The position numbers were made by a program, and so were the translations under genes. Shown here piece by piece: positions 426 to 34,000 of a DNA stretch of 64,000 bases (positions are counted from its first letter, which is position 1; every line of letters begins with the position of its first letter). Under the pieces are notes generated by a model that did no database searches, had not been told where the DNA came from, and saw only the letters and a program-made list of their open reading frames with translations. Source of the DNA: Malacoraja senta (taxonomy: Eukaryota); the NCBI GenBank assembly GCA_038087875.1, contig CM075987.1:28088001-28152000 (forward strand), given 5' to 3'.

Positions 426-1559
426 TGTACATTTCCCAGACCTAGTCCAACTAGTAACAATGCACATAAAAAGGAGTAAAATTACATATTATTGTAAGAG
501 TTGGTAAGTATGATGATTCTGTTTTAGAATAATGCAGCATTAACAATAGCTGAGGGAAAGTTATAGATAGTAAATGTCAGGTTAAAAATGTAAAATAAAA
601 TGTAAGACCTAATAGAACAACTTGCAGAATTTGAATTAACATTGTGAAAAAGATTGCAAAAAGGATTTTAATACCCAGCAGTAAACGTTCTACAAAAACA
701 TTCTTTATTTTTCCTAGAGAAGTTTGAAACTTTATCTAAACCATGCCTGAGGGCAAAACATTTACAGTGGAGCCCTAAAATCTGGTAAAATGAAATTGTA
801 TTTTCTCCTTTTGTGTAATCTTTCAGGCAAATAAAAGTAAAGACAACAATGTATAAATTTAACATCATTTCTCAAATTAAAATCTATTAGATCCTTTAAC
901 ATATATGCTGAAAGTCCTTTTTGAAACAACATTCTTTCCTTCATTTATGTTAACTTTTATGTTTTTTATGTGGTTGTGTCTTGTTGCTTTTCACTGAGTA
1001 TGGCTGTACGGTGAACCTTGATGACCATATAAATAGAGTATTTTGCTATCTTCTGTGCCATTGTAATGTGCTATAAAATAATATTTTGCTCATTGTTCAT
1101 TCAGTTCCATACTGTTTTTTCCATTTAATTCCATTCATTACATTGGCCATAACCATGTTAGCGTGATGATTTGATGCATGAATTTTCTGGCACTGAAAAG
1201 CCTTGTGGAGGAATTGAAAGGCATTCATCCAAGGAGATTATATGGGAAGTCCCCTTCCAATGAAGGTCCACAAGTTTTAGGTGGACGCACCTCAAAGGAG
1301 TCTCCTTTGTAGGAGCCTCTCCTCTGACAAATATTTGCTACTTCACCATTCTGCTACAAAGCTTCTGCATGTTCCATAGGGATGTGTCGGCTAAGTTCAG
1401 AAACCACATAACCAGATGTATATGTGGTAAACCATTTTTTTTAAGCATCTGTAATATCCCAGTCCTGTTCCTGGATCTGCCTGTTATGATGGTACTGCGA
1501 CCCTACAGGTAATTCATACTGTCTCGACTCTAGGGACTAGCAGTGATCTTGACAGGGTT

Positions 1560-7000: not shown

Positions 7001-10000
7001 CCTTTAGTGTCAAAGCTTTGAGCTTTGAGAACTAGCATGAAGCCTTTTATTTCTGTCTTCTTTAGCTCGAATGATGAGATAGCATTTTTTTCTGGTGGAT
7101 CCCTCACAGGGCCTAGAAAAAGGACAAATGGGTGAAGATAAATTATCATCATCCACTATGATGTAAGCAGTGACATGAAGAATGATGATATTGAGGATGA
7201 GCATAATGAAGCAAGATTTGGCATGAGCTCCTACCATATATGCCTCTGTCTTAACTCCTTACACAGCAGATTGGTGGTTGCTTGCATTCTCAGAACCTTA
7301 GATTAACTGAGATAATTTTATCTGAGGAGAATTAGTGTCAGTGAGAATGTATGCGGGAAGCAATAATTCTTTTTCTAAAAGCTTATCAAGAAGAGACCAA
7401 AATAATAATGGGTCAACTTCCCAATGGAAATTGAAGCTACTCAAATCTTTAGAATTCCAGCAATCAAAGTGTGTGAACTCTCACATAGATGTGCAATTTC
7501 CATGTAATTTTCTTGACAGAAAGATATTGCATCGCATCGATTGAAGTGTTCCCATGTCTCTGTAAAAATATATTACAAAAAAACAGCTGTGACTTCAGAT
7601 TCTTCAGTTCTCATTTGTTGGAATGTTAGAAGCCCTTTCTACCTTCTAGGCAATGGTGAAGAGAAAATATTATTTTTGAATTATGCTTATATGGCTATTA
7701 TAGAATCAGCCCAGCACCGTTCAATGGACCTTCCTTTGTGAAACCTTACACTAGCATTTGTGCCAAGTAGTAACTTTTGCATTGTCATTCTGGGGAACTA
7801 AGATGCAGAGCTACAACTCAAGATTTCCCACAATCTGATTACGGCTATTACATTATCCAACTCATTGACCAATGGAGCCTAGACTCTAGTGGAATGTAAT
7901 GCATTCTGCATTATCCAAGCTGCATAAGGATACTATCTCTCAGGATATATTTGTTTCTTTGCTTAATCACATAAAGCACCCAGGAAGCAATGCAGCCAAT
8001 GCTTACATGTTAAGGCTTTATTATTAATGTATTTGTTTTTTTCATTATCTTATCAAATATCTTGGGAAATTAAAATGCACAATACTACTACATTTATCAT
8101 GTTTGAATTGAGTTCTCCTTGTAAGATTTGTAGAACACTTTCCCTTTAAAAGATCTTGAAGGCTGATGAAGCAAGGTGTTTCTTGTATAAAAGAATACGT
8201 AACATTTACTCCTTCATTCAACGTTTGATAGATTTTTGGATATTTCTGATATTTTTTTCAAATGTTACAAGCAACATTTTGTAAGAATGTTGTAATGATT
8301 AAAAAATATTATTTTACAGGAAAAGAACTTCACAGATGAGCTTTATAAAACTTGCTCTCATTTTCATTTTGTTTGTTGAATATGAATAAAGGAACTTGAT
8401 GTGAAAGAAAGTAGCCCTATTTACTCTGATAAATGGAAAGAGAACAACATAGTGTATAGATTTCGCTTGTATCTGAATCAGTTTAGCTATGACTGACAGG
8501 TGTGGTTCATATAAATTCTCACTCAATCCTAAATAAGATGAAAGCCCATGTTATTACAGGGAAAATACTAGTGTGGATAGAAGATTGGCTGAATGGCAGA
8601 AGGCAAAGAGTGGGAATAAAGGGGGCTTTTCCTGGCTGGATGCCAGTGACTAATGGTGTTCCATCGGTGTCTGTGCTGAGTCCGCTACTTTTCACATTGT
8701 ATATTAATGATTTGGATGATGGAATTGATGGTTTTGTGGCCAAGTTTGCAGATGATATGAAGATGGGTGGAGGGGCAGGTAGTGTAGAGCAGTGCTTCTT
8801 AAACTGGTGAATGGTTCACCCAAGGGTGAATGAAATTATTTGGGGGTGAATGGAACTAGAGGGGTGAATGAAGGGTGAATGACTTAATCTATTCAGATTT
8901 TTTTTTTTCTATACTTAAAAAAGGCATTGCCATTAAAGTGGTTAGTAAGCTCTTATTGGTTTTAATGGCAGTGGAGCTGGAAATATGATATGTTTTTTTC
9001 TCTCTACCTATGGTTTTCTAATTTCAAAGTAGCAGGATATTTCCCAAATTTACTGTAATATAATCTTTTAGGGAAGACCATGTTTTTTTTAGCTAGTTTT
9101 CCAAGAAAAAAACTGCAGTAATCAAAGCCCGAAAGGGTAGGATGGGGCTGAAGCTCAGTGTTTAGACGTTGGGATGGTTTTTTATCTAATCAAATGATTT
9201 TCCAACTCCAGTGGTAATTAAACTTCTTTTTTTTTTCCACTCCTAGTTTTCTTTACATATTTTTAGGACGTTCAAAAAGTTGAATAAAATAAACACTTAA
9301 GAAATTAGTTAATTTATGTTTTTTGCTCATGTGACAAAATAAATTATATATAAAATTATACACAAGGGAGAATAAGACAAAAATTACCAAAAAACATAAG
9401 AAAATTTAGTCGAGGGTGAATGAAATTTTGTGATAAAGTCTCAAGGGTGAATGACTGAAATAGTTTAAGAAGCACTGGTGCAGAGGGAAGCAGGGAGTCT
9501 GCAGAATGACTGGTTGGGAGAGTGGGCAAAGAAGTGACAGATGGAATACAGCAGAGCACTTAGGTAGCAGGAGTAAAGGCATAGACTATTTTCTAAATGG
9601 GGACAGGATTCAGAAATTGGAGGTGGAAAGGGAATTGGGAATGCTAGTTGAGGATTTCCAAAAGGTTAATTTGTTGTGGCTGTGGAGGCCAAGTCCTTGG
9701 GTATTTTTAAAGCACAGATTGACAGGTTCTTGATTAGTAAGGGTGTCAAGGGTTACGGCGAGAAGGCAGGAGAATGGCGTTGAGAGGGAAAGATAGATTC
9801 GCCATGATTGAATGGCGGAGTAGACTCGATGGGCCGAATGGCGTAATTCTGCTTCTAGTACATGAATTTATGAATCATTTCAGTGTGTGTGTAAAATCAT
9901 TTTGAATTAACTATTTAGATTTTGATAATCCATAAAATATATTTTAACTTGTTCTGTTTGCTATTTAGATTTTGCAGTTCTGTGCCTATTGATGACACAA

Positions 10001-13000
10001 TGTATTCAGACACTGATGGAGCAACTGACTACCGTCAGATTTACAGGTCAGTGCTAGTGGAAAAAAATGTGAAGTTACTTCGCAATGTGAAATGTCAGTG
10101 TTGAAAAATGTGCTCCCTAATTTATAAATATTAAAATGTTTTGAATATTATCTGAAACATCCGAAAAATCCAGAAGAAATTGTGCAGATTATGTCAATAC
10201 CACACAGCTGATAACAAGCAAATTTTAATTTTGGAAGGTTTTTTTGAATGTTAGAACCAAAATTATATTGACTTTGTTTTCTCCATGGTAATAGCTCAGA
10301 TCTCACCACCACCTTTTCAAGAGCAATTGGGGATGGGCAAGAAATGTTGACGGCACCCAGATCATAAAAATGAATTTAAATTATGGAGGTATAATTAAAA
10401 AGCAAAATTACATTACATTGTATGTGTCAAAGCTGTCAATGGCTTTGAAAAACATGGAGAGACATTCTTTAGCCAACAATTAAATAAAGGATTCATTATC
10501 CTCAAGAACATGATATAATCGCGGCATTTAAGAGGCTGTCAGATAGGCAGGTGGATCTGCAAGGAATGAAGGGATATCAATCACATGCGTGGAAAGGAGA
10601 TTAGTTTATCTTGACATTATATTCGGCATAGATATTATGGGCGAAAGGGACTATTCCTGTGTTTACCTATTTTCTTTTTATATTTGGTGTAGTACAGGCA
10701 GGTAGAAGTTGGTGGTAAAGGTGATAAAATTGACCAATTCTGCATGCGTGCAGGAAGCAGCACAGATGCAGTTGTCGATTTAATGGAGAAAGAGATGGTG
10801 GTGTATGCCGGATTAGGCTCGATACAAGGATTGCTTCACGTAGCCAACACAATGACATGTGTAGCTAGAGCCCATGTGGAGTGCCCGTGACTACTCGTTT
10901 AGTTTATTATTGTCACATGTACCGGTGTACAGCAAAAAGCTTTGGTTTGCGTGCTATCCAGTCAGTCGAGCTACTGCTGTTATTTGTCTCTGAGAGACCA
11001 TCTCCCCAATAGTATCCAAATTGGTTTACCTGTTTGAAAGGGAGATAGCCACAGGAGACTTTGACACAAACTGCCAGCCTTTCCTGGTGGTCACCTGTCT
11101 AACTGGCTGAACCTTTGGTGTTGCCATCACCCTGAAACTATTGCCTACAACTCTCTCTGCCTCCTGTATGGTCCTCAATGTGTCCAACTGCCGCTCCAAC
11201 CAATCCATGTGGTCTGAGATGAGCTGCAGCTGAACACATTTCTTACAGATATAGTCGTGAGGACACTTGACTGCTCCTAGATTGGCGACATTGGACAGGA
11301 TGAGCATACCACTCCACTAAATGCCCCTATAAAACAAAATATAAATCTAGTGGATTTAAGGATAAGTAAACCCTCAACACCTTACCTTGATTTTGTGTGC
11401 CCTTCTCACCGAAGCCTGGTTTTCACCAAACCTTACATTTTGATCTACTAGCAAGCAGTCCTCTTAAAATGAACACGCTGCAAGATTCTGATTCTCTTTC
11501 AGTTGTTGCTCAGGCTGTTGGGCCTGAAAAACATATATATATATATATATATACACACATCAGTAATTATAGAAACATAGAAAATAGGTGCAGGAGTAGA
11601 CCATTCGGCCCTTCGAGCCAGCACCGCCATTTCAATATGATCATGGCTGATCATCCAAAATCAGTACCCTGTTCCTGCTTTTCCCCCCATATCCCTTGAT
11701 TCTGTTAGCCCCGAGAGCTAAATCTAACTCTCTCTTGAAAACATCCAGTGAATTGGCCTCCACTGTCTTCTCTGGCAGAGAATTCCACAGATTTACAACT
11801 CTCTGGGTGAAAACATTTTTCCTCATCTCAATCCTAAATGGCTTACCCATTATTTTTAAACTGTGACCTCTGGTTCTGGACCCCTCCAACATCGGGAACA
11901 TGTTTGGGGTCAAAGACATTTTGAAAGTCCAGATGCACCATATCCACTGGCTCTCCCTTATCCATTCTACTTGTTACATCCTCAAAAAATTCCAGAAGAT
12001 TAGTCAAGCATGATTTCCCCTTCATAAATCCATGCTCGCTTTGACCGATCCCGTCACTGCTTACCAAATACACTGTTATTACATCTTTAATAATCAACTC
12101 AAGTATCTTCCCCACTACCGATGCATGGTTAACTGGTCTATAATTCCCCATTTTCTCTCTACCTCCTTTCTTAAAATGTGGGGTTACATTAGCTACCCTC
12201 AAGTCCACAGGAACTGATCCAGAATCTATAGAACATTGGAAAATGATCCCAAATGCATCCCCGATTTCTAAGGCCACCTCCTTGAGTACTCTGGGATGCA
12301 GACCATCAGGCCCTGAGGATTTATCTGCCTTCAGTCCCAACAGTTTACTTAACACCATTTCCTGACTAATGTGGATTCCCTTCAGTTCCTCCCTCCCACT
12401 AGATCCTTGATCCCCTAGTATTTCTGGGAGTTTGTTTGCATCTTCCTTAGTAAAGACAGAACCAAAATACTTGTTTAACTGTCTGCTATTTCCTTGTTTC
12501 CCATTATAAATTCACCTGTTTCTGACTGTAAGGGACCTACATTTCTCTTCACTAATCTTTTCCTCTTCACATATCTAAAGAAGCTTTACGCCAGACAGGG
12601 ATGAACAATTGTTGTAGTTCATCTACGCGATCTTTAAATCTTTGCCATTGCAACTTCACCGTCAACCCTTTAAGTATCATTTGCCAGTCTATCCTAGCCA
12701 ATTCCCGTCTCATAACATCAAAAGGAATTAGAAAGAATTATGTATTCTTTCTCAGATCAGCTGTACATGCTTTATGCATTTTGTACGCATAATACATCAT
12801 GTTTTCCCTTTTCATCTTTTAGTTCTGGGCCTCGTGACGAATATCCATTTGAAGAAAAAGATAATGGAGACACCAGCACAACAATGCATAGGTCAGGGTA
12901 ACTGGGTTTGTACCTCATGGAGAGTTAGGGTGTCCATTTGCACCCTACAGTGAATTTATTAATTTCTAAGGATTCAAAAATGGGTTGTGTTCTTCTGAAT

Positions 13001-16000
13001 TTCAATTTAAAATGACAATTAATACACAAAATAGTTGTGCTATAACTCCTGGATAAGCGCTCAACTAAGAAAACCAAGCCCAAAACCAAAGTATTATCTC
13101 ACTAAATACACCAACTTACAATAAATGATTCCATATCCCCTCCTCCCTCCACTATCTTCCACTAATCCTAGCCCATCATTAAGCTTGTAACATCTCAAAT
13201 ATCTCCCTTGCACGAGACTGGGATACATTTGCACAGACTACAATTACCAAGAAATACACATACTGCATGTCTTACGTTTCCTTTCTGCCCCCAACTGACA
13301 CTTTCTTCTCCATCAAATCCACCTACTGCCTCGCTCTGCTGCCTCTGACATCTGCTTTACAGCCTGATGCAAACTCTGTCCACGAATTCCTAGCTCTCCA
13401 AATAGCGACGTGATCGATCTCGCTATGATATATATTTTTTCAATAAGTAAAGAGTTAATGTTACCAAAACCAATCTTTCTAAGCACTGATTAAAGCACAT
13501 TTAAATAGTAGGGAATAATTAAAACTTAAAAGTGAAATAAGTAAAATCTTATAACAACTTAGCCCATGTTGAGAATCTTTATTCAAATCAATGGGGACTC
13601 GGATCCAGTTAGTGTTGAATCCTAGAAACTCTAGCTTCATCATTAGACCGTTTGTGTGATGGCATCTGTTTCTTTGCTTGCCAGGGACTGAGTAGGTTTG
13701 CATAAGTTGAAGACTTACTTACCTGGGCATAACTAAGCCTCGCAATTGCTATACATAACTGGTGCGATCCATTGAACTTACATTTCTCTGCTTATTTTAC
13801 CATAATGGAATAAAACATTTTTTGTATTGATGTTTCCAATTAATTTCTTGACAAGATAAACACAGAGTATATTATTTGAAGAAATTAATTATTGTTCAAC
13901 ATTTACAAGTCTGTTATTTTTTCCTACTTAGCATGTTCCATTAATTCAAGGCACTTGAAATAAACTATATCAAAGAAATTTACAAATTAATGCTCTCATC
14001 ATGAAGCTGCCCATTGGAAGGTCACATCCTATAAATGTGGACATGATGGTTTGCAATTCCCATTCAAATTGTTGTTCATACAAACGGACTGCTGTGTGAG
14101 TGTGGTAGTCATACAGTCTGAAAACAGGCCCTTCGGCTCAACTAGCCCATGCCGATCAATATGCCCCATCTATACTAGTTCACGTTATAGGAGTAGAATT
14201 AGGCCATTCGACCATCGACTCCACTCTGTCATTCAATCATGGCTGATCACTGTCTCCTAATCCCATTTTCCTGCCTTCTCCCCATAACCCTCGACACCTG
14301 TTCTAATGAAGAATTTGTCTTCCTTTGCCTTAAAATAATCCACGGACTAGGCCTCCACAGCCCTCTGTGTCAATGAGTTCTGCAGATTAACTACCCTCTG
14401 ACTAGGAGAGGTCCCCCCTCATCCTTCTAAACTCCAGCAAGAAGAGGCCCAGTGTTGTCAAACACTCATCATATGTCAATCCACTCATTCCTGGGATCAT
14501 TCTTGTAAACCTCCTCTAGACCCTCTCCAGAGCCAGCACATCCTTCCTCAGATATGTGGCCCAAATTTGCTCACAGTACTCCAAATACAGCCAGACCAGC
14601 ACCTTATAGAGCCTCAACATTTCATCTGAGTTTATGTATTCTAGTCCTCTTGATTTAATGCTAGCATTGAATTTGCCTTCCTTACTACCGATTCGATTTG
14701 CAAATTAACTTTTTGGGAGTCCTGCACCAGCACTCCCAAGTCTCTTTGCACCTCTGATTTCTGGATTCTCTCTCCAGAGAGTAGGAGTTTGTAGAATCCA
14801 GGTTATGCATACTCAGAATGAGTTCCTCTTTTGCCAAAACTCTATTCTGAACATACTGATTGCAAAATGTATCCCATTTATTTGAAGTAATCTGGTAAAA
14901 TATAAAACTTGTCATATGTTCATTCATTAAGAGTGCTCACATTTCATTTGAAAGATGCTAAAACAATGAATTTTCAATCTATTTTGTGCATAGTTTTGGA
15001 CCAAGCGTGTAATTGATAACTTCATTAAAATTAAACTTATCAATTAATTGATTTTCAATTTGGTAAATGCTGAATTATCTTTTCTGTTTTTAATTTTACT
15101 CTATCTCACTTTGAAATATAGGTCAGGTGAACAACCTTGGCCTGATCAAGAATACTACAGACAGAGACATAACATTGATAGCAGGAAGGAGAACAGATCA
15201 CAGTAAGTGGTTATGACATAACGATTAATCAGTCAGATCTTTTAGAGAATTAAACAATCTTTAGTGCACTTTCTTATATTTATAATGTAATACATTCAGA
15301 AAGATTACCATTAATAAAGTCGACAATCAGATTGTATCTATAACAGCTGAAATGCTAAAACTGATTAATTTCACTGTCTTTATATCACTTTTCCCTATTG
15401 AAATACTTGTTTTTATAATGCAATTTTCTATACACAATATTTCTTTGATGCACAACTATGGAGTTATAGCTGAGCTACTTGTAAATAGCTCTTTTTTTAA
15501 ATTATTCTAAGACTCTTTATCTACATCCTGTTTTGTTCAATACTTACTGATGAATACTGTGATGTATTTATGTTGTTGGGGTCAGCCAACTATGTTGGCA
15601 TCTTTCACATGCAGATGACAGAGAGCTTTCTGCATTTCTGTGACTCTCGTTTTAGTCGAGTAGTTTCTGTCAAAGAATTCAAGAGGTTAAAGATAGAAAC
15701 ATAGAAACATAGAAAATAGGTGCAGGAGTAGGCCATTCGGCCATTCGAGCCTGCACCGCCATTCAATATGATCATGGCTGATCACCCAACTCAGTATCCT
15801 GTACCTGCCTTCTCTCCATACCCCCTGATCCCTGTAGCCACAAGGGCCACATCTAACTCCCTCTTAAATATAGCCAATGAACTGGCCTCAACTACCTTCT
15901 GTGGCAGAGAATTCCAGAGATTCACGACTCTGTGTGAAAAATGTTTTCCTCATCTCGGTCCTAAAAGATTTCCCCCTTATCCTTAAACTGTGACCCCTTG

Positions 16001-19000: not shown

Positions 19001-22000
19001 TCCCGTATCTCCCTGTTCCTGCTCTCGCCAGCATGAGGAACTGGAAGCAAACCGGAGATAACAACCCTGGAGGTCCTGCTTTTCAGCATTTTTCCAAGCT
19101 CTCTAAAGTCACGCTGCAGAATATTCATCCCCTTCTTTCCGACATCGTTTGTGCCGACATGCACTACCACTTCCGGCTGTTCACCTTCGCCCTTGAGGAT
19201 TTTCTGCACTCTGTCCGTGACATCCTGGATCCTGGCACCAGGAAGGCAGCACACCATCCTCGAATCCCGTCTGTTGCCGCAGAAACCCCTGTCCGTACCT
19301 CTCACAATGGAGTCTCCCACTACAATGACGTTGCCTGACTTTGGCCTTTTTAGTTTTGGCTCAACAGCCCTATTCACATCGCAAGCCAGTCTGCCGCTCA
19401 GTGTTAAAACATCTTCTGTCCCGACAGCTTCCAAGTGGGTGAACCTGTTCACAAGAGGTACAACATCCGGGGACATTTGCATTCCATGCTTCCCTCCCCT
19501 CCCTTTCTCACTGTCTCCCACCTTCTCTCTTCCAGTACCTTAGGGGTAACAATATTACTGTAGGACTTGTCGAGGAACGACTCCGTTTCTCGGACAAACC
19601 TGAGGTCATCCACTTGCTTCTCCAGTTCCCCAACACGGTCCTTCAGGAGCTGTACCTGGATGCACTTGTCACATTTGTAGCAGCCAGAGGCACCAGCAGT
19701 GTCCTTGACCCCCCACATACTGCAAGCATCACACTGAATCAGCTTGCCTGACATCTCCTTCTTTCGTCTCTCCCTCTGCAGTGTTTTGCGTAGCCTCCTC
19801 TCCTCAGCCTCCTCGCCAAAGACTCTCGAGCCAAAGACTCTCGAGCCAAAGACTCTCGAGCCAAAGACTCACACTTTTCTCACAGGGCACTTCCCCCACT
19901 GCCACTCCCTAAGAGCAGTCTTGCTTATATTGACTGATAAATTGCCTAATTTACCAATTTACAATCCAAATTCCTCAGTTTTCAACTGTTTTCCCCGCTT
20001 TGACTCACTTCTCTCCTCCCTCTTGGGCTAGAGCAAATCAGTGTTTTCTCTTGCTAATCTTCTCCTGCTGTTGCTTCCAAATCTGCAGCAGCTCTGAGTA
20101 GTCTGTCTGTGCTTTTCCTCTCATTTTCAACTGTTTTCCCCCCTCTCTTCAGCCAAATGCTTAAACTCTTCAAACATCTTACTTTAGGTTTGTAATTTTT
20201 TTTAATTGCAAAAAAATGTAATCTGTTACCTTCTTACAAAATTCTGTTTTGGAATATAGGTCTCCTTCTCGAAATAGTAGAACCTTTGAGCCACCTGATA
20301 CATCGATCAAAATGTATGTTTCTAGGTTAGAGTAAATAATAAAGTAGTGTTGGTGTAGTCAATCTGTTCATAATATAGACATTCATAATATGCAATTATC
20401 CTGCATTGTACAATTGTATAATATACAACTGGCATTGAAAGAGGATGAGGAGCAAGAGAGCAAATTAAATGGCAGTAACACAAAGATAATAAAATCGGAA
20501 ATTAAGACCAGAGCCAAGTGCAAATTGGTTTGGAGTCAATAATGTGAGGATCTCAAAGATTGGCGTGGGAGTAAAGAATTGCAATTTATATGGGCCTATC
20601 ATCAGTAGTGGTAAAGAGGGAACTCTGTGTTGGGTTGAGTTTCATTTGAATTAAGCTCAGATCAAAATCCTTGGAAATCAAATAAGTAGGGCTGAAGATA
20701 AGGTTTTGAACTGAATAGTGCAAGGATAATTCACGTGAGGGAAATCGACAATGATAATCAGTCTATTGGGAAACGATAGTGCGTACAAACAAAAAAATAT
20801 ACCTCTAATTAAAATCAGAGTAAAAATACAAAACTGTACAAGCTTCAGTAAAGGAGGGATAGCCCTCATAAAAGTATGAGACAATAAACAATAGGAAGAG
20901 GATCTTAGCTGAGAAAATTAAGAAATAGTTTAAGAAGGAACGTTGGAAAATCAAAAGTAGGCAAAAAATGTTGGAGAAACTCAGTGGGTGAGGCAGCATC
21001 ACAAATAAGCAATTACTTTTCACATTTATTAGACTAAGTGCATTGGCACCATGCATCAATCTGCATTTATTTCTCAGAAGACCTGTCCTGGGCCAAGTGC
21101 ATAGATGTGTCGCAGTATAATGAGAAACAGCATGTCACTGAAAATTCTACAGTGTCCAAACTTGTTGCATAGTGGCCTGGCACCACAACTCCACCACACA
21201 GGATCACAAAAGGCTGTGAGTAGTGGTGGGCTCAGCCTAATCCACCATGGGTACAGCCCTCCCAACTATTAAAAATATCTACCTGAGATGCTTCCTCAAG
21301 AAGGTGGCATTCATCATCAAGCATCCGCACTATCTGGGCCATGGATGTTCTTGCTGCTACCATCAGGCAGGAGGTACAGACACCTGAAGTCCCATGCCAC
21401 TATGTTCAGCAACAGTTAAATTCTTATAGCTGTCACGTTCTTGAACAACCTGCACAACTATAATCCTAACTCAGCAACAGAACATCATTGATAACCTCAT
21501 GTATTACCAGGAACTGGTTTTCTAATTGTGTTTCGCACCTATGTCTTGTGTGAAGTTTTTTTTCTTTTTCACTGTCTTTATATCACTTTTCCCTATTGAA
21601 ATACTTGTTTTTATAATGCAATTTTTTTCTATGCACAAGGTTTCTTTGGTGCACAACTATGGAGGTATAGTTGAGCTACCTGTAAATTGCTTTAAAAAAA
21701 ATTAATCTAAGACTCTTTATCTACATCCTGTTTTGTTCAATACTTACTGATGAATACTGTGATGTATTTATGTTGTTTGGGTCAGCCAACTATGTTGGCA
21801 TCTTTCACATGCAGATGACAGAGAGCTTTCTGCGTTTCTGTGACTCTCATTTTAATATGAGAGTAGTTTCTGTGAAACAATTCAAGAGGTTGAAGATATT
21901 TCAGCCAAATGCGTAAACTCTTCAAACAATCTTACTTTAGGTTTGAAATTTTTTTAAATTGCAAACAAATGTCATCTGTTACCCTCTTACAAAACTCTGT

Positions 22001-25000
22001 TTCGGAATATAGGTCTCCTCGAATTAGCAGAACCTTTGAGCCACCTGATACATCGAGCAAAATGCATGTTTCCAGGTTAGAGTAAATAATAAAGTAGTGT
22101 TGGTGTAGTCAATCTGTTCATAATATAGACGTTCATAATATGCAATTATCCTGCCTGGTACAATTGTATAATATACAACTGGCATTGAAAGAGGATGAGG
22201 AGCAAGAGAGCAAATTAAATGGCAGTAACACAATGATAATAATATCGGAAAGTAAGACCAGAGCCAAGTGCAAAGGAACCTTGTCAAAGGCCTTACTGAA
22301 GTCCATATAGACAACATCCACTGCTTTACCCTCATCAATTTCCCTAGTAACCTCTACGAAAAATTCAAGAAGATTAATCAAACATGACCTTCCAGGCACA
22401 AATCCATGTTGACTGTTCCTAATCAGACCCTGTTTATCCAGATGCTTATATATATTATCCCTAAGTATCCTTTCCATTAATTTGCCCACCACTGACGTCA
22501 AACTAACAGGTCTATAATTGCTAGGTTTACTCTTAGAACCCTTTTTAAACAATGGAACAACATGCGCAGTACGCCAATCCTCCGGCACTATTCCCGTTTC
22601 TAATGACATTTGAAATATTTCTGTCATAGCCCCTGCTATTTCTACACTAACTTCCCTCAATGTCCTAGGGAATATCCTGTCAGGACCTGGAGACTTATCC
22701 GTTTTCATATTTTTCAAAAGTGTCCACACTTCCTCTTCTTTGAATCTCATAGTTTCCATTGCTACTCTGCTTGTTTCCCTTACCTCACATAATTCAATAT
22801 CCTTCTCCTTGGTGAATACCGAAGAAAAGAAATTGTTCAATATCTCCCCCATCTCTTTTGGCTCTGCAGATAGCTGTCCACCCTGACTCTCCAATGGACC
22901 AATTTTATTCCTTGTTATCCTTTTGCTATTAATATAGCTGTAGAAACCCTTTGGGTTTACTTTCACCTTACTTGCCAAAGCAACCTCATATCTTTTAGCT
23001 TTTCTAATTTCTTTCTTAAGATTCTTTTTACATTCTTTATACTCCTGCAGCACCTCATTTACTCCATGCTGCCTATAATTATTGTAGATCTCTCTCTTTT
23101 TCTGAACCAAGTGTCCAATTTCCCTTGAAAACCATGGCTCTTTCCAATTTTTACAATTTCCTTTCAACCGAACAGGGACATAAAGATTCTGTACTCTTAA
23201 AATTTCACCTTTAAATGTCCTCCATTTCCCTTCTACATCCTTCCCATAAAACAACATGTCCCAACTCACTCCTTTTAAATCCTTTCGCATCTCCTCAAAG
23301 TTAGCCTTTCTCCAGTCAAAAATCTCAACCTTAGGTCCAGTTCTGACCCTCTCCATAATTATATTGAAACTAATGGTATTGTGATCACTGGACCCAAAGT
23401 GCTCCCCAACGCATACCTCCGCCACCTGCCCTGTCTCATTTCCTAACAGGAGGTCCAGCACTGCCCCTTCTCTTGTAGGTACCTCTATGTATTGCTGCAA
23501 AAAACTATCCTGCACACATTTTACAAACTCCAAACCATCCAGCCCTTTTACAGAATGTGTTTCCCAGTCTATGTGTGGAAAGTTGAAATCTCCCACAATC
23601 ACTACCTTGTGCTTACTACTAATATCTTCTATCTCCTTACATATTTGCTCTTCCAATTCTCGCTCTCCATTAGGCGGTCTATAATACACCCCTATAAGTG
23701 TTGCTACCCCTTTCCCATTTATCAGTTCCACCCAAATAGCCTCCCTAGACGAGCCCTCTAATCTATCCTGCCAAAGCACTGCTGTGTGTATACCAGACTC
23801 TAAGATGCACTCTGAGTGTATACCAGACGCTTTCAAATCAATTATGATGACAAATCAATAAGGCAACAAGTTATTTTTGATCTAATATTGATGTCATGAG
23901 AAGGGATTCATCAGTTGTGCAGTTAAGGAGCCATCAGGGAAAAGTAATCAATCATGATTTGGTCCAATTTTAAAATTAAGACTGGTAGCACTTTAGTTCA
24001 ATACAAAATCAAGGTCTTAAATCTAAATAAGCCAACTATAAAAGATATGAGGCGTGAGTTGGATTTGGCAGATTGGGAAACTGCATTAAGGCCAATGGAA
24101 AAGGCTTTTAATGTTGTCAAAAAGAACAACAGGCTCAAGGATTGGGAAAATTGAAGAATTCAGCAAAGTAGGACAAAACATTAACAAGGAAAGGAAAGTC
24201 TAGAGCAAATCATAAAAGCTGTGTGGCAAAGCTATTATAAGCCTCTGCTACTTCCATATCAACCGATGCAGACGGACATCATCCAGCATTTGTTGACTGT
24301 TCTTGGCGTGTATGGCAACACAGGCAAAGGTCATCTACCATTTGGGTGTTGCAGTGGAAGCTTAGACTTCTGCCCAGTTTCCTGGCATCTTGGCTCTGGA
24401 TACCAGACTTCAGTCTATCTCCAGCAATTCCCATTCAATTGTAGCAGGACTCTCAGGTTGCCTATAAAGCCTGGTTGCTGTAATTTGGAGTGAAACACTC
24501 TAGTTTACATCCAGTCAGTCTAGACCCCACCTGTATTGCAGTTTCTTCCATTGCTATATTTATATTTTTTGCATACACCGTAATTTACTTAAAACAATAC
24601 CAGATATTTACTAGATATGTAACTAATCCAGTATTATGAGAGTTATAAAATTGTACAACACATAAATGGGTGTTCTGGCTTACCATAGTCACGCTGTCAC
24701 TTTGTGCCCAAACTTCACTCATCCCATTTGCCTCATCCTTCAATGCCTTGCCTACAATTTGATTTGAAGATAGACACAAAATGCTGGAGTAACTCAGCAG
24801 GACAGGCAGCATCTCTGGAGAGAAGGAATGGGTGAGGTTTTGGGGCGAGACCCTTCTTCAGGATTCCTCAGTTTTGATTTTTATGTTTTTCTGTGTTCTA
24901 TCCTTGCTTTTTTTTTTAGGGCATTCACTCCTGGACCTCCTGAGGAAGGCGTGTTTGGCGGTCAGGATAATGATTCAAATGGTTTGCCTATCTGTAGGTC

Positions 25001-28000
25001 AGTGCAATGGCTTTGTGAGTTACAGAATAGCAAAAACATTTAATCACACCTATAATAATACAACAACAATTGTGTGTGGGTCATTGCTCTGCTGAATTAT
25101 TGTGGGTTCCAGGCCTTAGATCCACAAGCATAATTCGAATGAATGAATGAATGAATGAATAAGTTTATTGGCCAAGTATTCACATACAAGGAATTTGCTT
25201 TGGTGCTCCGCCCGCAAGTGACAACATGGCATACAGTGACAGTTAGGAATGACATAATGGCCTAATTCTGTTCCTATCACTTATGACTTTATGACTATCT
25301 GCAATACCACCCACTTTTGTATCTGCAAACTTGCTCATCTTGCCATGTAAATTTCATCCAAATTATTGATATTGATGACAAACAGTAACTGGCCCAGCAC
25401 CGAACCCTGAGGCGCACCACTAGTCACAGGCCTGCAGTCTGAGAAGCAACCTTCCACCATCTCCCTCTGTTTCTTTCCATGAAGCCAATTCTCTATCCAT
25501 TCTTTTTAATGCATTTGATGCTGATGCTTTCCATGATGTGGTAAGGGTTGGTCCATTGAGTATGAGAATTTTGTCAGCCATTCAGCAAACCACCAGAACA
25601 CTGATACCTGCTCAGACCACCCATCCTAACTAGTCTGGAAGGCAGATTTATTTTTTCAGCATGTCAATCACTATAATGCACCATGACAACTCCATGTTTT
25701 TTAGATGTCATGGCAGTTCTGACAGGAGCCATGTCTGTCTAATATTTTTACATTTCTCTTTGATCTTTGTGATACATATTGTATGGCATATCTATAGAAG
25801 GTAGATGGTTGATCATGCTTTTTCTTTTTAACTAGGGATGTTCTGTCACCCTCACAGTAAGTATTCAAATAATTTTTGGTGCTGCTCTAGTACTAATTGT
25901 CTGAGAGAAATTTCTGCTGGGAAAGCAGAAACATTTCTGCAAATATCTTAGTTTTACAACATTTTCAAGGAGGCGCCTCGTGATAACATAGCATTATCAC
26001 TTATCTTAGATAGGCAATAAAATATCCTATTTACAGTTGTCACAACTTATATTAACTAAAAATAAATGTAAATTTCAGTGGTGTTGATTGGACACCAGGA
26101 GAATTCCAAGCTTTTCAAATACTGACGGACCTTTACCTTTCACCTTAATTGTCAAATGAGATCATAATTTAAGAATAAAGAGTAAGCCATTTAGAACGGA
26201 GTCGAGGAAACACTTTTTCTCACAGAGAGTGGTGAGTCTGTGGAATTCTCTGCCTCAGAGGGCGGTGGAGGCAGGTTCTCTGGATGCTTTGAAGAGAGAG
26301 CTAGATAGAGCTCTTAAAAATAGCGGAGTCAAGGGATATAGGGAGAAGGCAGGAACGGGGTACTGATTGGGGATGATCAGCCATGATCACATTGAATGGC
26401 GGTGCTGGCTCGAAGGGCCAAATGGCCTACTCCTGCATCTATTGTCTATTGTCTATTGTCTATTGTCTATTGTCCATAATTTAACATCAGATTTAAAAGA
26501 CAGGAATGCAGACTTTTGCCAATATTTTCCTTGAATCTTGGACTCGGTTAAGTACTGGATTTTTGGGACTTGAATCCGTGAGTTTTTCACTCAGTGCCAA
26601 ATGCTTATTAATTGGGTCAAATTAATATTCAATTATTGTGAGGAAATTAGGTGTTCAATAGGTTGGAATCCGTATCTGGTGAATTCCAATATACCAGATG
26701 TGCGCTAGTTACAGGAAGCCTCCCTGAAACTGGTCACATAAGCTAACATTTTTTTTTCCATTTTCAATTTGTTTTTCAAGATAGTTTAATTTACTTTATA
26801 CTGTTACTATCATGGCTGACTCGTTTTCTAAGCATGTTTGACTATTTCCATTTGGACTTACCCACTTCAGTTCAATTTAGTTTATTGTCATGTGTTGCCC
26901 TCACCTATCAGAATAAAATCAGGTTGATTACTCAGCTACTATAACTATACCTCAGAGATGGAAAGGCAAAGAAGTGATTTTGTTCAAGCCTGTGACTTCT
27001 TAATGACTGACATATTAACAATGAATTTCAATATGTTTGGGAATTGTTACCAGTGATATTATCTGACCCATCGGGGCTCCCTGGATTCTTGGTGTTAGCA
27101 ATTACTCCTCTTTCACTTGATTAATACAGCAGAGAATTTATTAAAAATATGTGCTGTACAGTATAATTGGAAGATTCGCAGTGGCCTTCATTTGTTACCC
27201 AACAAATGTAATTGTTCTATTTTAGTACATATGAAAATTCCCTTGACTCTGTTAAACACATCTGATTATGTATTCCAATGATTTCAAGGAGCCAACGTTT
27301 ATTGTATTGTATTGTATATCTTTATTGTCATTTCCTGAGTATTCGCATACCCAGATGAAACAAAAAAACTTTCCTCAACCAGTGTCCATTTCAGTGTGCA
27401 GTAAAAAATAAATAGAAGTACACACACTCTTCATACACACCACTCGCTCCAAAAACCCACGAAAACACCGAACTTTCACTGGGAGAGGCCGCTGCAAACT
27501 CCGGTCGCGCCGCCATCTTGTAAAATCTTTAAAAAAGATTTAATGTAAATTATAGATTTAATTATTTATATAATTATTAATTCTATATCAATCATCTTAT
27601 ACACCTCCATAAGATCAATTGGTAATAAATTATATAATTATATTGAATAGAATTATATTAAAAATATGATTATATTAAATATGATTAATAATTATAATCA
27701 GACATAATTATTTATAATATTTATTTATATGATTGTTTATAGATTTATAAATTATAGACTGATTTTAATACTGCAGTTATGAAACAATTTCTATATCATG
27801 AAGGTCATCCAGATGTGTTATATTGATGGTTGTATTAGATGGTTGTATTATGTTATCATTTACATTTCTCATCCACTTAAATAGATCTATTTATATGCAT
27901 GTTTTCATATTTCCACCTTGCTCTTTGACCATGCACTTATAGGATGTAAAGATATAGAGCTTTCCATTATTTCATTTATGAAATAGAAATAATGTAAATC

Positions 28001-31000
28001 ATATCTACCAATGGCACGTGTGCAGCACAAAAATGCCATCAAGAGAAAATCCAAGTCTCACCCGCTGATATTTAATAGGATTATTAAAGTGGAATCCCTT
28101 ACTATTGATATCCTGAGGGATTACCGTAGATCAAAAACTGAACTGGAATAACTATATACATAAGATAGGCACAAAACGCTGGAGTATCTCAACGGGTCAG
28201 ACAGCAACTCTGGAAAAAAGGAATAGGTGACGTTTTGGTTCGAGACCCTTCTACAGACCGAGTCTTGAGCTGAAACGTCACCTATCCTTTTTGATGGAGA
28301 ACTGCAGACGCTGGTTTAAACTGAAGACAGATACAAAAGGCTGGAGTAACTCAGCGGGTCAGGCAACATCTCTGGAGGAAAGGAATAGGTGACGTTTCGG
28401 TTCTGAAAAAGGGTCTCAACCCGAAAGGTCACCAATTCCTTTTCTCCAAAGATGCTACCTGATTTGCTGAGTTACTTCATAGAAACATAGAAACATAGAA
28501 AATAGGTGCAGTAGGAGGCCATTTGGCCCTTCGAGCCAGCATTGCCATTAATTGTGATCATGGCTGATCGTCCCCAATCAATAATCCGTGCCTGCCTTCT
28601 CCCCATGTCCTTGATTCCACTAGCCCCTAGAGCTCTATCTAACTCTCTCTTAAATCCATCCAGTGATTTGGCCTCCACTGCCCTCTGTGGCAGGGAATTC
28701 CACAATTCACAACTCTCTGGGTGAAAATGTTTTTTCTCACCTCAGTCTTAAATGGCCTCCCCTTTATTCTAAGACTGTGGCCCCTGGTTCTGGACTCGCC
28801 CAACATTGGGAACATTTTTCCTGCATCTAGCTTGTCCAGTCCTTCAGCCTTTTGTGTCTGTCTTATAGCAACTCGCTTGATAGGCACCTATCCACAACAA
28901 TTCACTCACTTCACCATCAAAGCAGAGTAGCAGCTGTACGTACCTTCTACAGGATACACTGCAATGATTCACCCATGCTATCTGAGACATCGGCTTCCAA
29001 ACTCATGCCTTTCTGCCCTTAATGGATAAGGGCAACAATGACATGGGATCCCAGCTAAAAGTTGCCCTCCCGGCTACACAGCATTCTCATTTGGAAATAT
29101 ATTGCCATTCTCTCACTGTTGCTTGGTCAAAATCCTCAAACTCTCTCCCTAACAACATTATGGGTATACATAATACCTAAGTGATTGCAGCACTTCATGA
29201 AGGCAGCTCACTATTAACTTTCCCAGAGCAATTAGAGATGGGCAATTAAATGCTGGCTCTGCCATTGAAGCCCATACCCCTTGAATGCATATTAAAAAAC
29301 ATTATTTCACCATGAATAGTTAATTTTGAATATCAGGTGTGAAAGAGTGAAATTATATAAGGTACCAATGGCTTGCTCAAATTCTCAATATAATTGTGTT
29401 AATGTATGGCTCAACACATATGAATGTAAAAAATATTCCAACAATTTATTTGGAAGTATTCAACAGACTAGCATTTCATTTCATCACACCCTTGGAAAGA
29501 TTGTGAAAGAGTAGTCTCCATATGAATATTTTCAATGTTTAATTATATTTAGTTACTCCTAGAAAGTTGTAGGCTGTAAAAAGTAAAATTAATAATTCTG
29601 GTTTTCTATTTACACGATCTTGCTTTAAAATGTAGATTCCCCAACCGAATTTGGCTTGATCAAGACAACTGCAGACAAAGTTATGTAATTGACACAAATA
29701 CGCAAGATGACAGATCACCGTAAGTGATAAAAATGCAAAAAGTAATCAGTCAGAATATTTCAGGGAATTTGTTGTATTTTCATATATTTTTATGTGATGC
29801 ATTCAGTCGTTAGTTGGGATCAACTCAACAGAGTATTTAAAATGCACCTGTAAATGTTACTGAACATTGTATGAGTACCTCAATAAATAAAAAAATAATT
29901 GGTATGAAAAATGTACAGTAGAATTTAGTCAGGGCATTGACTCCAAGAGTCAGGAAGTTATGTTGCAGTTTTATAAAACTTTGGTTCACCCACATTTGAA
30001 CTATTGTGTAAAATTCTGGTTGTCCCAACATCGAAGGATGTGGAGGCTTTGGAGAGGCTGCAAAATAAATTTACCAGAATGCTGCTTGTATTTGAGAGTA
30101 TTAACTATAGAAAAGGTTCGATAAACTTAGATTGTTTTCTCTGAAGTGTCAGAGGCTGAGAGGAGACCTGATAGAAATATATAAAATGATGAGAGGCATG
30201 GATAGGGTAGATAGTCAGAACCTTTTCCCCATGATGGAAAAATCAAATAGTACAGGGCATAGCTTTAAGTTAAGAGGGGCAAAGTTTAAAGGAGATGTGT
30301 GGGGCATGTTTTTTTACATGGTGTAGTAGGTGCCTATAATGCACTTCCTGGGTTGATGGAGAAATAGATACAATGGTGGCATTTAAGAGGCTTGTAGATA
30401 GACATATGAATATGCAGGGAATGGCGAGATTGGAGATAATTTGGCATCGTGTTCAGCGTGGCATCGGTCTGGCCCTGTTCCTGCGCTATAATGTTCTGGA
30501 TGTTCTATTAATGCTTTAAGCATTAGGCTAATTTTATAGCATTCCTGGGCTTCACACGAGCCAGGTAAAGTATATGTATGGTACGTTTAAGAACTGAACG
30601 AACCACCTGCTATGACCTAGAAGTGTTTGTACCAGACTATACCAGTTAGTTGAGAGTTTCTGCATTTAGTACATGATGCACTGTTTATGCTTATTGCTTA
30701 AGCCAATTGCTTATGCTTGCAGCAACACAAGAAAACATGCGTAACAAAGGGGGTTTGCAGAGCAACCTGGTGAAATACCAGCAAACTGAAAGTTGCTGTA
30801 GATTCTAGACCAGGAACATTGACTTGTACCTTTTTATTCCACATATACTGCCTGACCTGATCAGTTCTTCTAACATTCTGTTTTTTGTTCCTGAAACAAT
30901 AATTCTGCTTCTCCCTCAACTGCTGTAACCTGACCCACTGAGGATTTCCAACATTTTCTGTTCTATTTTCAGATTTCTAGCACATGCAATGATTTGCTTT

Positions 31001-34000
31001 TGAAAGTAATTCATAGCTCCTGTCTACACACCAGCTTAATCATTCTGGCTATTGTGGAGCATTGTAGATGAGTGGGTTTTGACTAGAATATGTTTCTGGG
31101 AAAGGAATATAGTAATTCTAAGATAATGCAGATAAGTGGCTGAATTTCTGAGATAGTCTTGCTCAGTAATTTTCTAATCAAAAATACCAAAAAATGTTCT
31201 CTGGTTTCCTTTCATGTAATTTCTCTCTATTTTGGAATAATCACTTCAAAAACGTAGAAACATAGAGCAACATGAAGCATCCAGCAATAGAAACACTCCC
31301 AGGTAGTAAAAATGTGATTATCTATTCAGTGTTTGGAAATTCAGGGCATAATTTGGGTCAAATTGAGTCAAGGTTCTGAGGTAACTTTGCTAAATGAGTT
31401 ACCAAAGTACTGATGAAAGGACTCACTTCTATGTTTTCATTTCCAATACTGGTTATGCTACCACGTTATAAAGTGTGAGTGTTTCTCTATGTGCTGTGCT
31501 TTTAATTAGAATATTTAATTGTGGGAGGCAAATCAATTCCTCATCCCAGATATTCACAATAGATAGGGAATAGGGAATAGGGAATAGGGAATTTGGATAG
31601 GGAACCGAATATTTTAAGCTGGAAAGGGTACAAAAAAGATTTGTGAGGATGTTGCCAAGACTCAAGGGCCTGAACTATAGGGAAAGATTGGGCAGACTAG
31701 GACTTTATTCCATGGAGCACAGGAGGCTGAGAGGGTAATCTTATATAAGTGTATAAATTCATAAGGGGAATAGATAGGGTGAATGTAGAGAATCTTTTAC
31801 CAAGAGTAGCAGAATCAAAACCAGAGGACATAGATTTAAGGTGAGAGTGGCAAGATTTAGAGTCATAGAAACAGGCCCTACGGCCCAACTTGCCCACACC
31901 GGCCAACATGTCCCTGTTACACTAGTCCCACCTGCCTACGTTTGGTCCATATCTCTCCAAACCTGTCCTATCCATGTACCTGTCCAACTGCTTCTTAAAT
32001 GTTGGGATAGTCCCTGCCTCAACGACCTCCTCTGGCAGCTTGTTCCATACAACCACCACACTTTGTGTGATAAAGTTACCCCTCAGATTCATATTAAATC
32101 TTTTCCCATTCATGTTAAACCTATGTCCTCTAGTCCGTGATTCACCTACTCTGGGCAAGAGACTCTGTGCATCTACCTGATCTATTCCTCTCATGATTTT
32201 GTACTACTCCAAGGATTCTATTATATTAAACTCTGATGTCTGACTTATGCTTTTGTTTTCTTATGTCTTATCTTATCTTCTACACACTTTGTCATTCCGG
32301 AGACTCTAGAGACTAACTCAAAGCTCTCATATACAGTGCATGAAATATCAGTATCTGAGTTGGTAATAGCATGTATCAAGGGAGGAAATATATTCATGAT
32401 TACTGGTACTCTTCTTCGTCTTGTTGTGTGATCTGGCCACGTTAAGCTTCTTAACTACACGATGGAGAAATGGCACAAGGATAGACTAAGGTGGGAGAGG
32501 ATGAAGGTAAGTATCCGCTTCTACCTGTTGCATCATGTAAGACAGAAGAGATCTCAGGTGATGGGATGAGAACACTGTCATCTTCAACAGGTTCAGCTCC
32601 ACATTTGACCATTAACTCATCAATTGCTTTTCTTGTAAGGAAGAAGACGTCTATAATAATAAGGAGTATTTTGGGGTAATGTAATTGGGATCCCTCGCTT
32701 TCTTTCTGGGGATTATCCAGTCAACCCCTATATGTTTCTAGTTATAGTTCATTATTTCAACTGTAATCACCATTATAGATCTTTTATGCATGTAAACATA
32801 TTTTGATGGCAGACTAACCTATACAAATTCTTCATTCAAAAAATACTTTAATAAAATTATAGAAGGATTTGAAAACATGTTTCAAATGTTATTTCTTTGC
32901 TCTGTTTCAGAACGAGACAGTCACCTATATTACGGTAAGTGTTTTAAAAGCAATTTGTATTGCAAAATGTTTCTGGGCATGGAGATGAAGATTTTGAAAT
33001 AATTTGTTCTAGTTAAGACCAAAATCTTTAGGCCATGCAGTAGTTGTGCAGGTTCTCTGCTGACAATGGCAAGATTCTTATCTGGTTCAGGTCAAACTAA
33101 GGCTGCTGTATTCCCTTCAATACAATTACTGAACAAACCTCTCATAATCTAAGGATGTACTTCAATCTCCCAACCTACCTCATTGCAGCCCTTGCAATTT
33201 TTTATCTGCACTTTCTCTGTAACTGTAACACTATAATGTTGTAACACTATATTGGGCACTATAGTAATTTTCTCTTTGCACCACCTGTTTATGACTTGAT
33301 TGTACTTGTGTATATCATCATTTGACTGGATAGCACACAAGCAAAGGTTTTCTCTGTATCTTGGTACACATGACAATAATAAACCGATACTGCTCTCAAC
33401 TTTTGAGCCATCTCTTCTCTCCCATAAACATTACTTAGTTACAACCGCATACTGTTGCCTGGCTTCTTTGCTCATCCACTGAATACCTAGTGGAAGCATC
33501 CTCCCCACATCCATTCTTTCCAAGCCTTTCACTAATCTGTATGTTTCATTGAGGTCCCCCCTCATTTTTCTAAATTGGAAGAGAGGCTAATGGAATTCAA
33601 ACTCTCTCTATTTTTATTTTAGATTTCCAGCATGTTTTGTATGTTTGTTTTTGTATTGTAGTTAATCTTTTCCTGATTTGCTTCCTCAGGTTGCCACCAA
33701 GTTCAAGTCCCATGTCGTGAGTACAGCACACATCGTTTGCACGGTTTTCAGAGTAGTTTCCTCAAACAATCTAGAAATTCAATGTGGTTTGTCAAAAAAA
33801 TCAAGATCCCACTTTCTGTTGCCAGAGTGGACACGTCCATTCCGAAGATAAACATATTTCAGAATGCATCAAACATCTGTGGAAGCCAGTGATGTTGGGT
33901 GATGTGGAACCCAAAAATAAGTGTTGATAAAATGAAGGGAAATATTTTTGGTTATCTGAGATTATAGCAACAGAGCATGTATGATTTATTTTCTCATAAT

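What the first reader, a model, noticed from the sequence alone, without database searches (positions are those of the whole stretch)
9969..31302. Higher-order exon module duplicated: A-A-B-C-C then A-D-B-C
A2 and A3 align (SGPRDEYPFEEKDN vs PGPPEEGVFGGQDN, both ending AG|gtcag). B1 and B2 align (W.DQ...RQ...ID...RS plus shared intronic taatcagtcaga). C1' and C2 align over 20 codons. The preserved order implies an old multi-exon block duplication, overlaid by younger single-exon duplications. Amino-acid divergence is high while lengths and splice sites are kept, suggesting selection on frame and architecture rather than sequence, or diversifying selection (inference).
Basis: partly seen in the sequence, partly recalled or inferred. 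Interest (0 to 1): 0.7.

Follow-up and report, generated by a model that had tools for sequence, protein, structure and literature searches.

The report
Ray membrane protein's duplicated exon module
These short exons belong to an unnamed shark-and-ray membrane protein whose long, likely floppy inner tail carries a block of exons that was likely doubled in the common ancestor of skates and rays and then trimmed differently in each lineage, a real but known way that genes grow.

Summary
The duplication is real, and the gene is now identified. The nine segments are frame-preserving (phase 2) mini-exons. They belong to the ortholog of Leucoraja erinacea LOC129712172, an uncharacterised single-pass membrane protein for which I found only shark and ray relatives. 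Eight of the nine are in all four Leucoraja RefSeq isoforms. B1/B2 and C/C2 are homologous in exon and flanking intron. A2/A3 is weak in DNA but clear through the sawfish ortholog (15/25 identical). The one shark model with a long tail has a single A-D-B-C module. Skate and sawfish have two B exons, and the devil ray keeps C1 before A3, so the block likely doubled in the skate-ray ancestor. Lengths and splice sites are not all kept: C2 lost its acceptor and is absent from 4 of 4 Leucoraja isoforms. Paralog dN/dS is 0.72 (95% CI 0.37-1.28), so diversifying selection is not shown. The likely mechanism is an exon accordion: symmetric exons in a low-constraint tail are gained and lost without frameshift, and each lineage has expanded a different module. 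The mechanism is known; the gene family is undescribed.

The parts
9969..10046 (+). Exon A1, 78 nt, phase 2-2; a second in-frame acceptor at 9978 would give 69 nt
   Evidence: 21/25 aa identical to Leucoraja, which uses the upstream acceptor; 15/25 to sawfish and devil ray A1
12823..12891 (+). Exon A2, 69 nt (alternative donor at 12897 gives 75 nt); first exon of module copy 1
   Evidence: 20/22 to Leucoraja, 9/22 to sawfish A2; two donors scored
15122..15202 (+). Exon B1, 81 nt
   Evidence: 23/26 to Leucoraja, 18/26 to sawfish B1; homologous to B2 with flanks
20260..20325 (+). Exon C1, 66 nt; the Leucoraja protein corresponds to the internal donor after 20313 (54 nt)
   Evidence: 16/17 to Leucoraja
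22013..22075 (+). Exon C1', 63 nt; younger single-exon duplicate of C1, shared with Leucoraja
   Evidence: 58/63 nt to C1, flanks 93-97% over about 700 nt (15369-15695 plus 20148-20524 against 21567-22274); 16/20 aa to Leucoraja
24920..24997 (+). Exon A3, 78 nt; first exon of module copy 2
   Evidence: 20/25 to Leucoraja, 10/25 to sawfish A3
25836..25856 (+). Micro-exon D, 21 nt; ancestral part of the module (present in sawshark and sawfish), no remnant found in copy 1
   Evidence: 6/6 to Leucoraja; D-like hexapeptide before B in P0005 and P0020; remnant search z=-1.3
29636..29719 (+). Exon B2, 84 nt; the most conserved exon of the module
   Evidence: 27/27 to Leucoraja, 22/27 to sawfish; 2 of 2 differences in two related organisms are synonymous
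31241..31302 (+). C2: ortholog of the sawfish C exon whose original acceptor is deleted; only an in-frame AG 17 nt further in remains (31258-31302, 45 nt); likely decayed or rarely used
   Evidence: 13/20 aa to the sawfish exon; acceptor gap in alignment; absent from 4 of 4 Leucoraja isoforms
32911..32934 (+). Exon E, 24 nt, same gene
   Evidence: 6/7 to Leucoraja
33336..39583 (+). Young 3.1-kb tandem duplication holding two identical copies of a 27-nt exon E2 (33690-33716 and 36788-36814), both with intact splice sites
   Evidence: 37 mismatches in 3105 aligned nt; E2 8/8 to Leucoraja, which has one copy
43149..44165 (+). Exons F (43149-43181) and G (44130-44165), another single-exon duplicate pair
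   Evidence: z=18.5, intron-only z=25.9 and 16.2; 9/10 and 10/11 to Leucoraja
53791..63010 (+). Exons H (53791-53820), I (56299-56325), K (58315-58359), L (62966-63010), all phase 2-2; the gene continues beyond the window
   Evidence: tblastn of Leucoraja isoform X1

Best explanation
The segments are frame-preserving mini-exons that encode part of the long, likely disordered cytoplasmic tail of an unnamed shark-and-ray single-pass membrane protein, and an ancestral A-D-B-C exon block was likely duplicated once by unequal recombination in the ancestor of skates and rays. Shown: gene identity, phase-2 symmetry, homology of the copies, one module in the sawshark model against two in rays, and lineage-specific exon sets. 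Inferred: after the duplication each lineage dropped or re-copied single exons without frameshift (skate: D lost from copy 1, C1 doubled, C2 decayed; the sawfish model lacks C1; the devil ray models seen lack B). Inferred function: the conserved part is the membrane anchor with its two juxtamembrane cysteines; the tail likely works as a low-constraint Ser/Pro/Arg-rich phosphorylation and docking scaffold whose length and motif number are set by exon copy number and alternative splicing, with B2 the likeliest real binding motif.
For: The ortholog in Leucoraja contains 8 of the 9 segments in the same order. Orthologs have one strong hydrophobic segment, a weak N-terminal hydrophobic segment in the Leucoraja X1 and catshark models, an S/T/P-rich ectodomain (0.30-0.39 in three models) and long tails with 16-18% Ser and 8-11% Pro. 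All 22 invariant alignment columns fall in residues 97-143, none in the tail. Order in orthologs: sawshark A,a,A,A,D,B,C,X; sawfish A1,A2,B1,A3,D,B2,C2,X; devil ray A1,A2,C1,A3 or A1,A2,C1,X. Ray B1s and B2s form separate groups, and the shark B is about equally close to both sawfish copies (15/26, 16/27). In the A tree, ray A2 and A3 group together apart from the shark A exons (64% bootstrap). Intron flanks of B and of the C acceptor are homologous. Other lineages expanded other modules: an F/G-like motif occurs 17 times in devil ray, 4 in sawfish and 2 in skate; two other motifs 18 times each only in sawshark; a QSDY-type motif 8 times only in skate. The sawshark cluster holds 24 isoform records.
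Against: The AU test does not reject the alternative that A2 and A3 are older than the block duplication (p=0.107 and 0.218 for the two alternative trees). A2/A3 are more diverged than B1/B2 (31/63 against 51/81 nt) and their flanks barely align. Only one shark model has a long tail, so loss of one module in the sawshark cannot be excluded. The middle of the introns shows no homology. Catshark and electric-ray models have tails of only 11-95 aa, which means either that the tail is dispensable or that those models are incomplete. No Pfam family, solved structure or RNA data supports any function. All exon sets of other species are read from RefSeq-type protein models, not from their DNA.
Confidence: 0.72

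Rival explanations
1. A2 and A3 come from the older tandem A-A pair seen in the shark; the ray duplication copied A-D-B-C and then lost A and D from the first copy, so only B-C is the surviving duplicated block.
For: A2/A3 are more diverged than B1/B2 and have almost no flank homology; the AU test keeps both such trees in the confidence set; the shark has several A exons.
Against: Sawfish A2 and A3 share the EEKDN motif and a proline column that the last shark A lacks, and sawfish A3 is closer to the shark's penultimate A (12/20) than to its last A (10/25). The single-block tree has the best likelihood. Transposon insertions lie within about 60-100 nt of both A acceptors, which would erase the flanks.
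Confidence: 0.17
2. The tail exons are under diversifying selection, for instance as an immune or gamete-recognition protein in an arms race, and the duplication supplied raw material.
For: Skate A2 and A3 are only 9/22 and 10/25 identical to the sawfish orthologs, less than the probably silent C2 (13/20), with long skate branches. In one related organism 5 of 6 changed A1 codons are non-synonymous (the table was cut, so the list may be incomplete).
Against: Pooled paralog dN/dS is 0.72-0.96 with intervals that span 1; A2-A3 alone gives dN below dS; B2 changes are synonymous; the region is predicted to be cytoplasmic; the ITIM-like motifs of the skate C-terminal repeat are absent from sawfish, devil ray and sawshark models.
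Confidence: 0.15
3. B and C were duplicated independently as single exons and the repeated order is a coincidence.
For: Homology is limited to about 150 nt around each exon; single-exon duplication is frequent in this gene (C1/C1', E2, F/G).
Against: B1/B2 and C1'/C2 have the same divergence (pS 0.36 and 0.41, pN 0.37 and 0.38); homology runs into the B-C intron from both ends in both copies; non-adjacent placement in the same order would need two transpositions.
Confidence: 0.05

Closest known systems
Leucoraja erinacea LOC129712172 (XP_055516397-400) and its unnamed orthologs in Pristis, Mobula, Narcine, Scyliorhinus, Pristiophorus
   Same: This is the orthologous gene: 198 of 221 residues identical over 14 exons, same order (exon K left out of the sum because of a 2-residue gap)
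   Different: The window has a second copy of exon E2 and an in-frame remnant of C2; the records carry no function and no described repeat structure
Tandem and multi-exon internal duplication in animal genes, e.g. obscurin (PMC9013439, abstract and case-study section read), the nebulin eight-exon triplicate region (PMC9109913, search listing) and seven-module super-repeats (PMC7754682, abstract read)
   Same: Blocks of exons are duplicated as units, copy number varies between lineages, and repeats are differentially spliced
   Different: Those repeats are folded or binding modules with kept sequence; here the units are 7-28 aa, have no Pfam match, sit behind a transmembrane helix and mostly evolve near the neutral rate
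Olduvai/NBPF triplets (PMC9584774, 10.1101/2021.07.06.450945; search listing only)
   Same: Higher-order repeat of exon modules, lineage-specific expansion
   Different: Primate, young, many copies, a Pfam domain; no sequence relation was found
Transmembrane adaptor proteins SIT and TRIM (PMC2193021, PMC2212462; search listing with abstract starts)
   Same: Single membrane helix, extracellular cysteines near the membrane, non-enzymatic tail
   Different: No conserved tyrosine signalling motifs across orthologs, much longer tail and ectodomain, no sequence match

Membership tests
Ortholog group of Leucoraja LOC129712172 | High identity and collinear exons | tested here: met
   198/221 aa over 14 exons in order
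Ortholog group of Leucoraja LOC129712172 | Conserved CDCS motif plus transmembrane exon upstream | not testable with these tools
   Not found in the window by tblastn; it would lie upstream, and no genome is held
Multi-exon block (internal) duplication | Homologous exons in repeated order | tested here: met
   B1/B2, C1/C2, A2/A3
Multi-exon block (internal) duplication | Homologous intron sequence between the copied exons | tested here: inconclusive
   Met for both B flanks and the C acceptor flank; not met for intron interiors, the C donor flank and the A acceptor flank
Multi-exon block (internal) duplication | All copied exons have the same age | tested here: inconclusive
   B and C agree; A2/A3 look older and the AU test is not significant
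Multi-exon block (internal) duplication | Outgroup with a single module | tested here: met
   The sawshark model has one D-B-C; one species, protein model only
Mutually exclusive tandem exons | Only one copy is included per transcript | tested here: not met
   A1, A2, A3, B1, B2, C1, C1' occur together in 4 of 4 Leucoraja isoforms
Transmembrane adaptor proteins (SIT, TRIM, LAT type) | Single membrane helix and no catalytic domain | tested here: met
   Hydropathy; no Pfam family above cut-off in 7 of 7 proteins
Transmembrane adaptor proteins (SIT, TRIM, LAT type) | Conserved tyrosine-based SH2-docking motifs | tested here: not met
   ITIM-like motifs 2 in Leucoraja, 0 in sawfish, devil ray and sawshark; YxxL/I 4, 0, 1, 1
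Transmembrane adaptor proteins (SIT, TRIM, LAT type) | Expression in lymphocytes and disulfide-linked dimer | not testable with these tools
Genes under diversifying selection | dN/dS significantly above 1 | tested here: not met
   0.96 (0.41-2.27) and 0.72 (0.37-1.28), 46 and 68 codons, low power

The most novel reading that the evidence does not exclude
An elasmobranch-only surface receptor whose cytoplasmic tail is an exon accordion under adaptive tuning: every lineage has amplified a different phase-2 phospho-motif exon (2 to 18 copies), splicing produces dozens of tail variants, and some skate exons were driven by positive selection, giving sharks and rays a signalling-strength dial unknown in bony vertebrates.
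Probability: 0.12. Interest if true: 0.65.

Novelty: new member of a known kind. Interest (0 to 1): 0.35.

Why it matters
The mechanism (block and single-exon duplication of symmetric exons) is textbook, so the duplication alone is not surprising. The gene is a compact natural series of exon birth and death: five duplication ages in 55 kb, from an old block shared by skates and rays to a 1.2%-diverged copy, plus an exon (C2) that is expressed in sawfish but apparently decayed in skates. The module order could serve as a rare genomic character for batoid monophyly. The protein family itself, with a strongly conserved membrane anchor and no relative found outside sharks and rays, is undescribed in the papers searched.

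Tried and rejected
No whole genome is held, so synteny and the upstream exons could not be examined. No RNA holder was listed; this says nothing on expression. One search was swamped by transposon reads and its difference table was cut (40 rows shown, 1912 not), so no exon-versus-intron rate was computed from it. Candidate exon U0 (7066-7131) was dropped: weak donor and no match in any ortholog. Candidate J (56850) was dropped: its length is not a multiple of 3 and it has no match. No remnant of D in copy 1, and none of the X and Y exons that follow C in sawfish and sawshark, was found (best z 0.9-2.4). Pfam gave 0 families at cut-off; PDB sequences 0 hits; ESM Atlas no hit at 0.9 or above, leads only. 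The phmmer search of 1.84 billion representatives gave 8 hits: 7 elasmobranch and one plant repeat protein at E=7e-4, taken as a low-complexity match. The third homolog search returned only the sawshark protein and missed known longer orthologs, so that search is insensitive. The homodimer prediction of the membrane segment gave no verdict. An assembly artefact for the 3.1-kb duplication was considered: the copies differ by 1.2%, while the 8 listed contig pieces of a second sample of the same organism differ from the window at 3 of about 5100 nt, so a real young duplication is more likely. Literature: the four LOC identifiers gave 0 papers; a five-term search on elasmobranch uncharacterised single-pass proteins with exon duplication gave 0; one search gave nothing relevant. 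Supplementary tables were not searched and could list the gene. Earlier scan notes near this place or like this protein: none; three notes on other pieces of the genome do not bear on it.
Full report
What the window is. The 64 kb is 39% GC, rich in SINE and LINE copies, and holds no long host reading frame; seven long frames that I scanned all carry reverse transcriptase, endonuclease or integrase domains. It lies inside one gene on the + strand. I defined the candidate mini-exons by eye and with a splice-site scan. All have lengths divisible by three and are open in phase 2; 6 of 17 entries have a stop in phase 1 and 15 of 17 in phase 0.

Gene identity. A two-sequence profile of B1 and B2 found one protein among 13 candidates: Leucoraja erinacea LOC129712172, E=9e-22. 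tblastn of its isoform X1 placed A1, A2, B1, C1, C1', A3, D, B2, E, E2, F, G, H, I, K and L in order along the window. Identity is 198 of 221 residues over 14 exons, with K left out for a gap and L not summed, so the window comes from another skate (inference). The protein has a weak N-terminal hydrophobic segment, an S/T/P-rich ectodomain, a CDCS motif, one strong hydrophobic segment and a tail of about 650 residues. Type I topology with a cytoplasmic tail is my inference from this layout. Orthologs were found in sawfish, two devil rays, an electric ray, catshark and sawshark, and none in bony vertebrates at E<=0.001. All 22 invariant columns lie in and around the membrane segment. No Pfam family or solved structure matches.

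Is the duplication real? Yes. B1-B2 (z=30) and C-C2 (z=10-11) far exceed shuffles. Intron alone aligns on both sides of B and on the acceptor side of C (z=9.8, 4.6, 6.4), and the shared intronic 12-mer is unique to these two places. A2-A3 fails the plain DNA test (z=2.0) but passes when anchored at the donor (31/63 nt, p=0.0006), and the sawfish copies are 15/25 identical. Against a simple picture: intron interiors, the C donor flank and the A acceptor flank show nothing but transposons.

History. Reading the ortholog proteins by module (my parsing): the sawshark has several A exons, then one D, B, C and X. The sawfish has A1, A2, B1, A3, D, B2, C2, X. The devil ray isoforms seen have A1, A2, C1 and then A3 or X. 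The skate has A1, A2, B1, C1, C1', A3, D, B2 and a C2 remnant. The union of the ray forms is [A2 B1 C1][A3 D B2 C2], so the ancestral unit was likely A-D-B-C, doubled after the split from sharks and before skates, sawfish and devil rays diverged. PMC7612883 (passages read) reports skates as sister to the other batoids in its likelihood tree and in molecular studies, though not in its parsimony tree. PMC10671267 (passages read) uses 159 million years as calibration for the sawfish order, which gives a rough minimum age (inference). At the columns where the sawfish B copies differ, the shark residue is kept by B1 at 5 and by B2 at 6, as expected for two descendants of one exon. The inclusion of A in the block is likely but unproven: 64% bootstrap, best likelihood, alternatives not rejected.

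Younger events. C1' copies about 700 nt around C1 at 93-97% and is shared with Leucoraja. F and G are an older pair. A 3.1-kb tandem duplication at 1.2% divergence doubled exon E2. C2 lost its acceptor by a short deletion; it matches the expressed sawfish exon at 13/20 but is in 0 of 4 Leucoraja isoforms. An in-frame AG 17 nt further in could still be used; this is untested.

Selection. Paralog dN/dS is about 1 for B and C, and 0.72 pooled with A, with intervals spanning 1. The C1/C1' exon (58/63) is no more conserved than its flanks. B2 is the exception: 27/27 to Leucoraja, 22/27 to sawfish, and both differences seen in two related organisms are synonymous, 2 in 84 exon nt against 23 in about 374 flank nt for one of them. 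A2 and A3 changed fast on the skate branch, which leaves room for episodic positive selection that I could not test.

How it likely works. Because every exon starts and ends in phase 2, any exon or block can be copied, skipped or lost without a frameshift (established rule for symmetric exons; recalled). A tail rich in Ser, Pro and Arg and poor in conserved positions tolerates this. Each lineage has amplified a different module, and the sawshark has at least 24 isoform records. I therefore read the tail as a low-constraint phosphorylation and docking scaffold with 13-23 S/T-P sites in the four long-tailed models, anchored by a conserved membrane segment. This functional step is inferred; nothing here tests it. 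It resembles transmembrane adaptor proteins in layout but fails their defining test, conserved tyrosine motifs.

Comparison with what is known. Multi-exon duplication with lineage-specific copy number is documented for obscurin (PMC9013439, abstract and case studies read), nebulin (PMC7754682 abstract read; PMC9109913 listing) and NBPF triplets (listings). This gene is a new example of that known kind. No paper naming these loci was found; supplementary tables were not searched.

Verdict. Observation confirmed; interpretation partly supported; new member of a known kind; interest 0.35.

Noticed in passing
window 33336-39583: A 3.1-kb tandem duplication, 1.2% diverged, doubles the 27-nt exon E2 with identical splice sites; Leucoraja isoforms have one copy.
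   Followed up: partly
window about 45820-50935, minus strand: DIRS-like retrotransposon in an intron: reverse transcriptase and integrase N-terminal matches, split inverted terminal repeats and an internal complementary region; the family name is recalled, not tested.
   Followed up: partly
window 15696-20147, 22275-23755, 11569-12722, 39999-42580: Antisense LINE copies with endonuclease or reverse transcriptase matches inside the introns; the one at 15696 split the first copy of the C1 duplication unit.
   Followed up: partly
window 9969 and 9978: A1 has two in-frame acceptors 9 nt apart; A2 uses only the equivalent of the inner one, which suggests how it shortened. In one related organism the inner AG of A1 is changed.
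   Followed up: partly
Leucoraja P0004, C-terminal part (beyond the window): Eight QSDY-type repeats, two fitting the ITIM consensus, are present in the skate protein but not in the sawfish, devil ray or sawshark models.
   Followed up: partly
P0022 and P0023 clusters: Catshark and electric-ray models of this gene end 11-95 residues after the membrane segment: short-tail isoforms or incomplete annotation.
   Followed up: no
window 643-670: A weak match (z=2.5, best of 15 frames tested) to a cysteine-containing shark exon that lies between the membrane segment and the A exons; no clean splice sites, probably chance.
   Followed up: no
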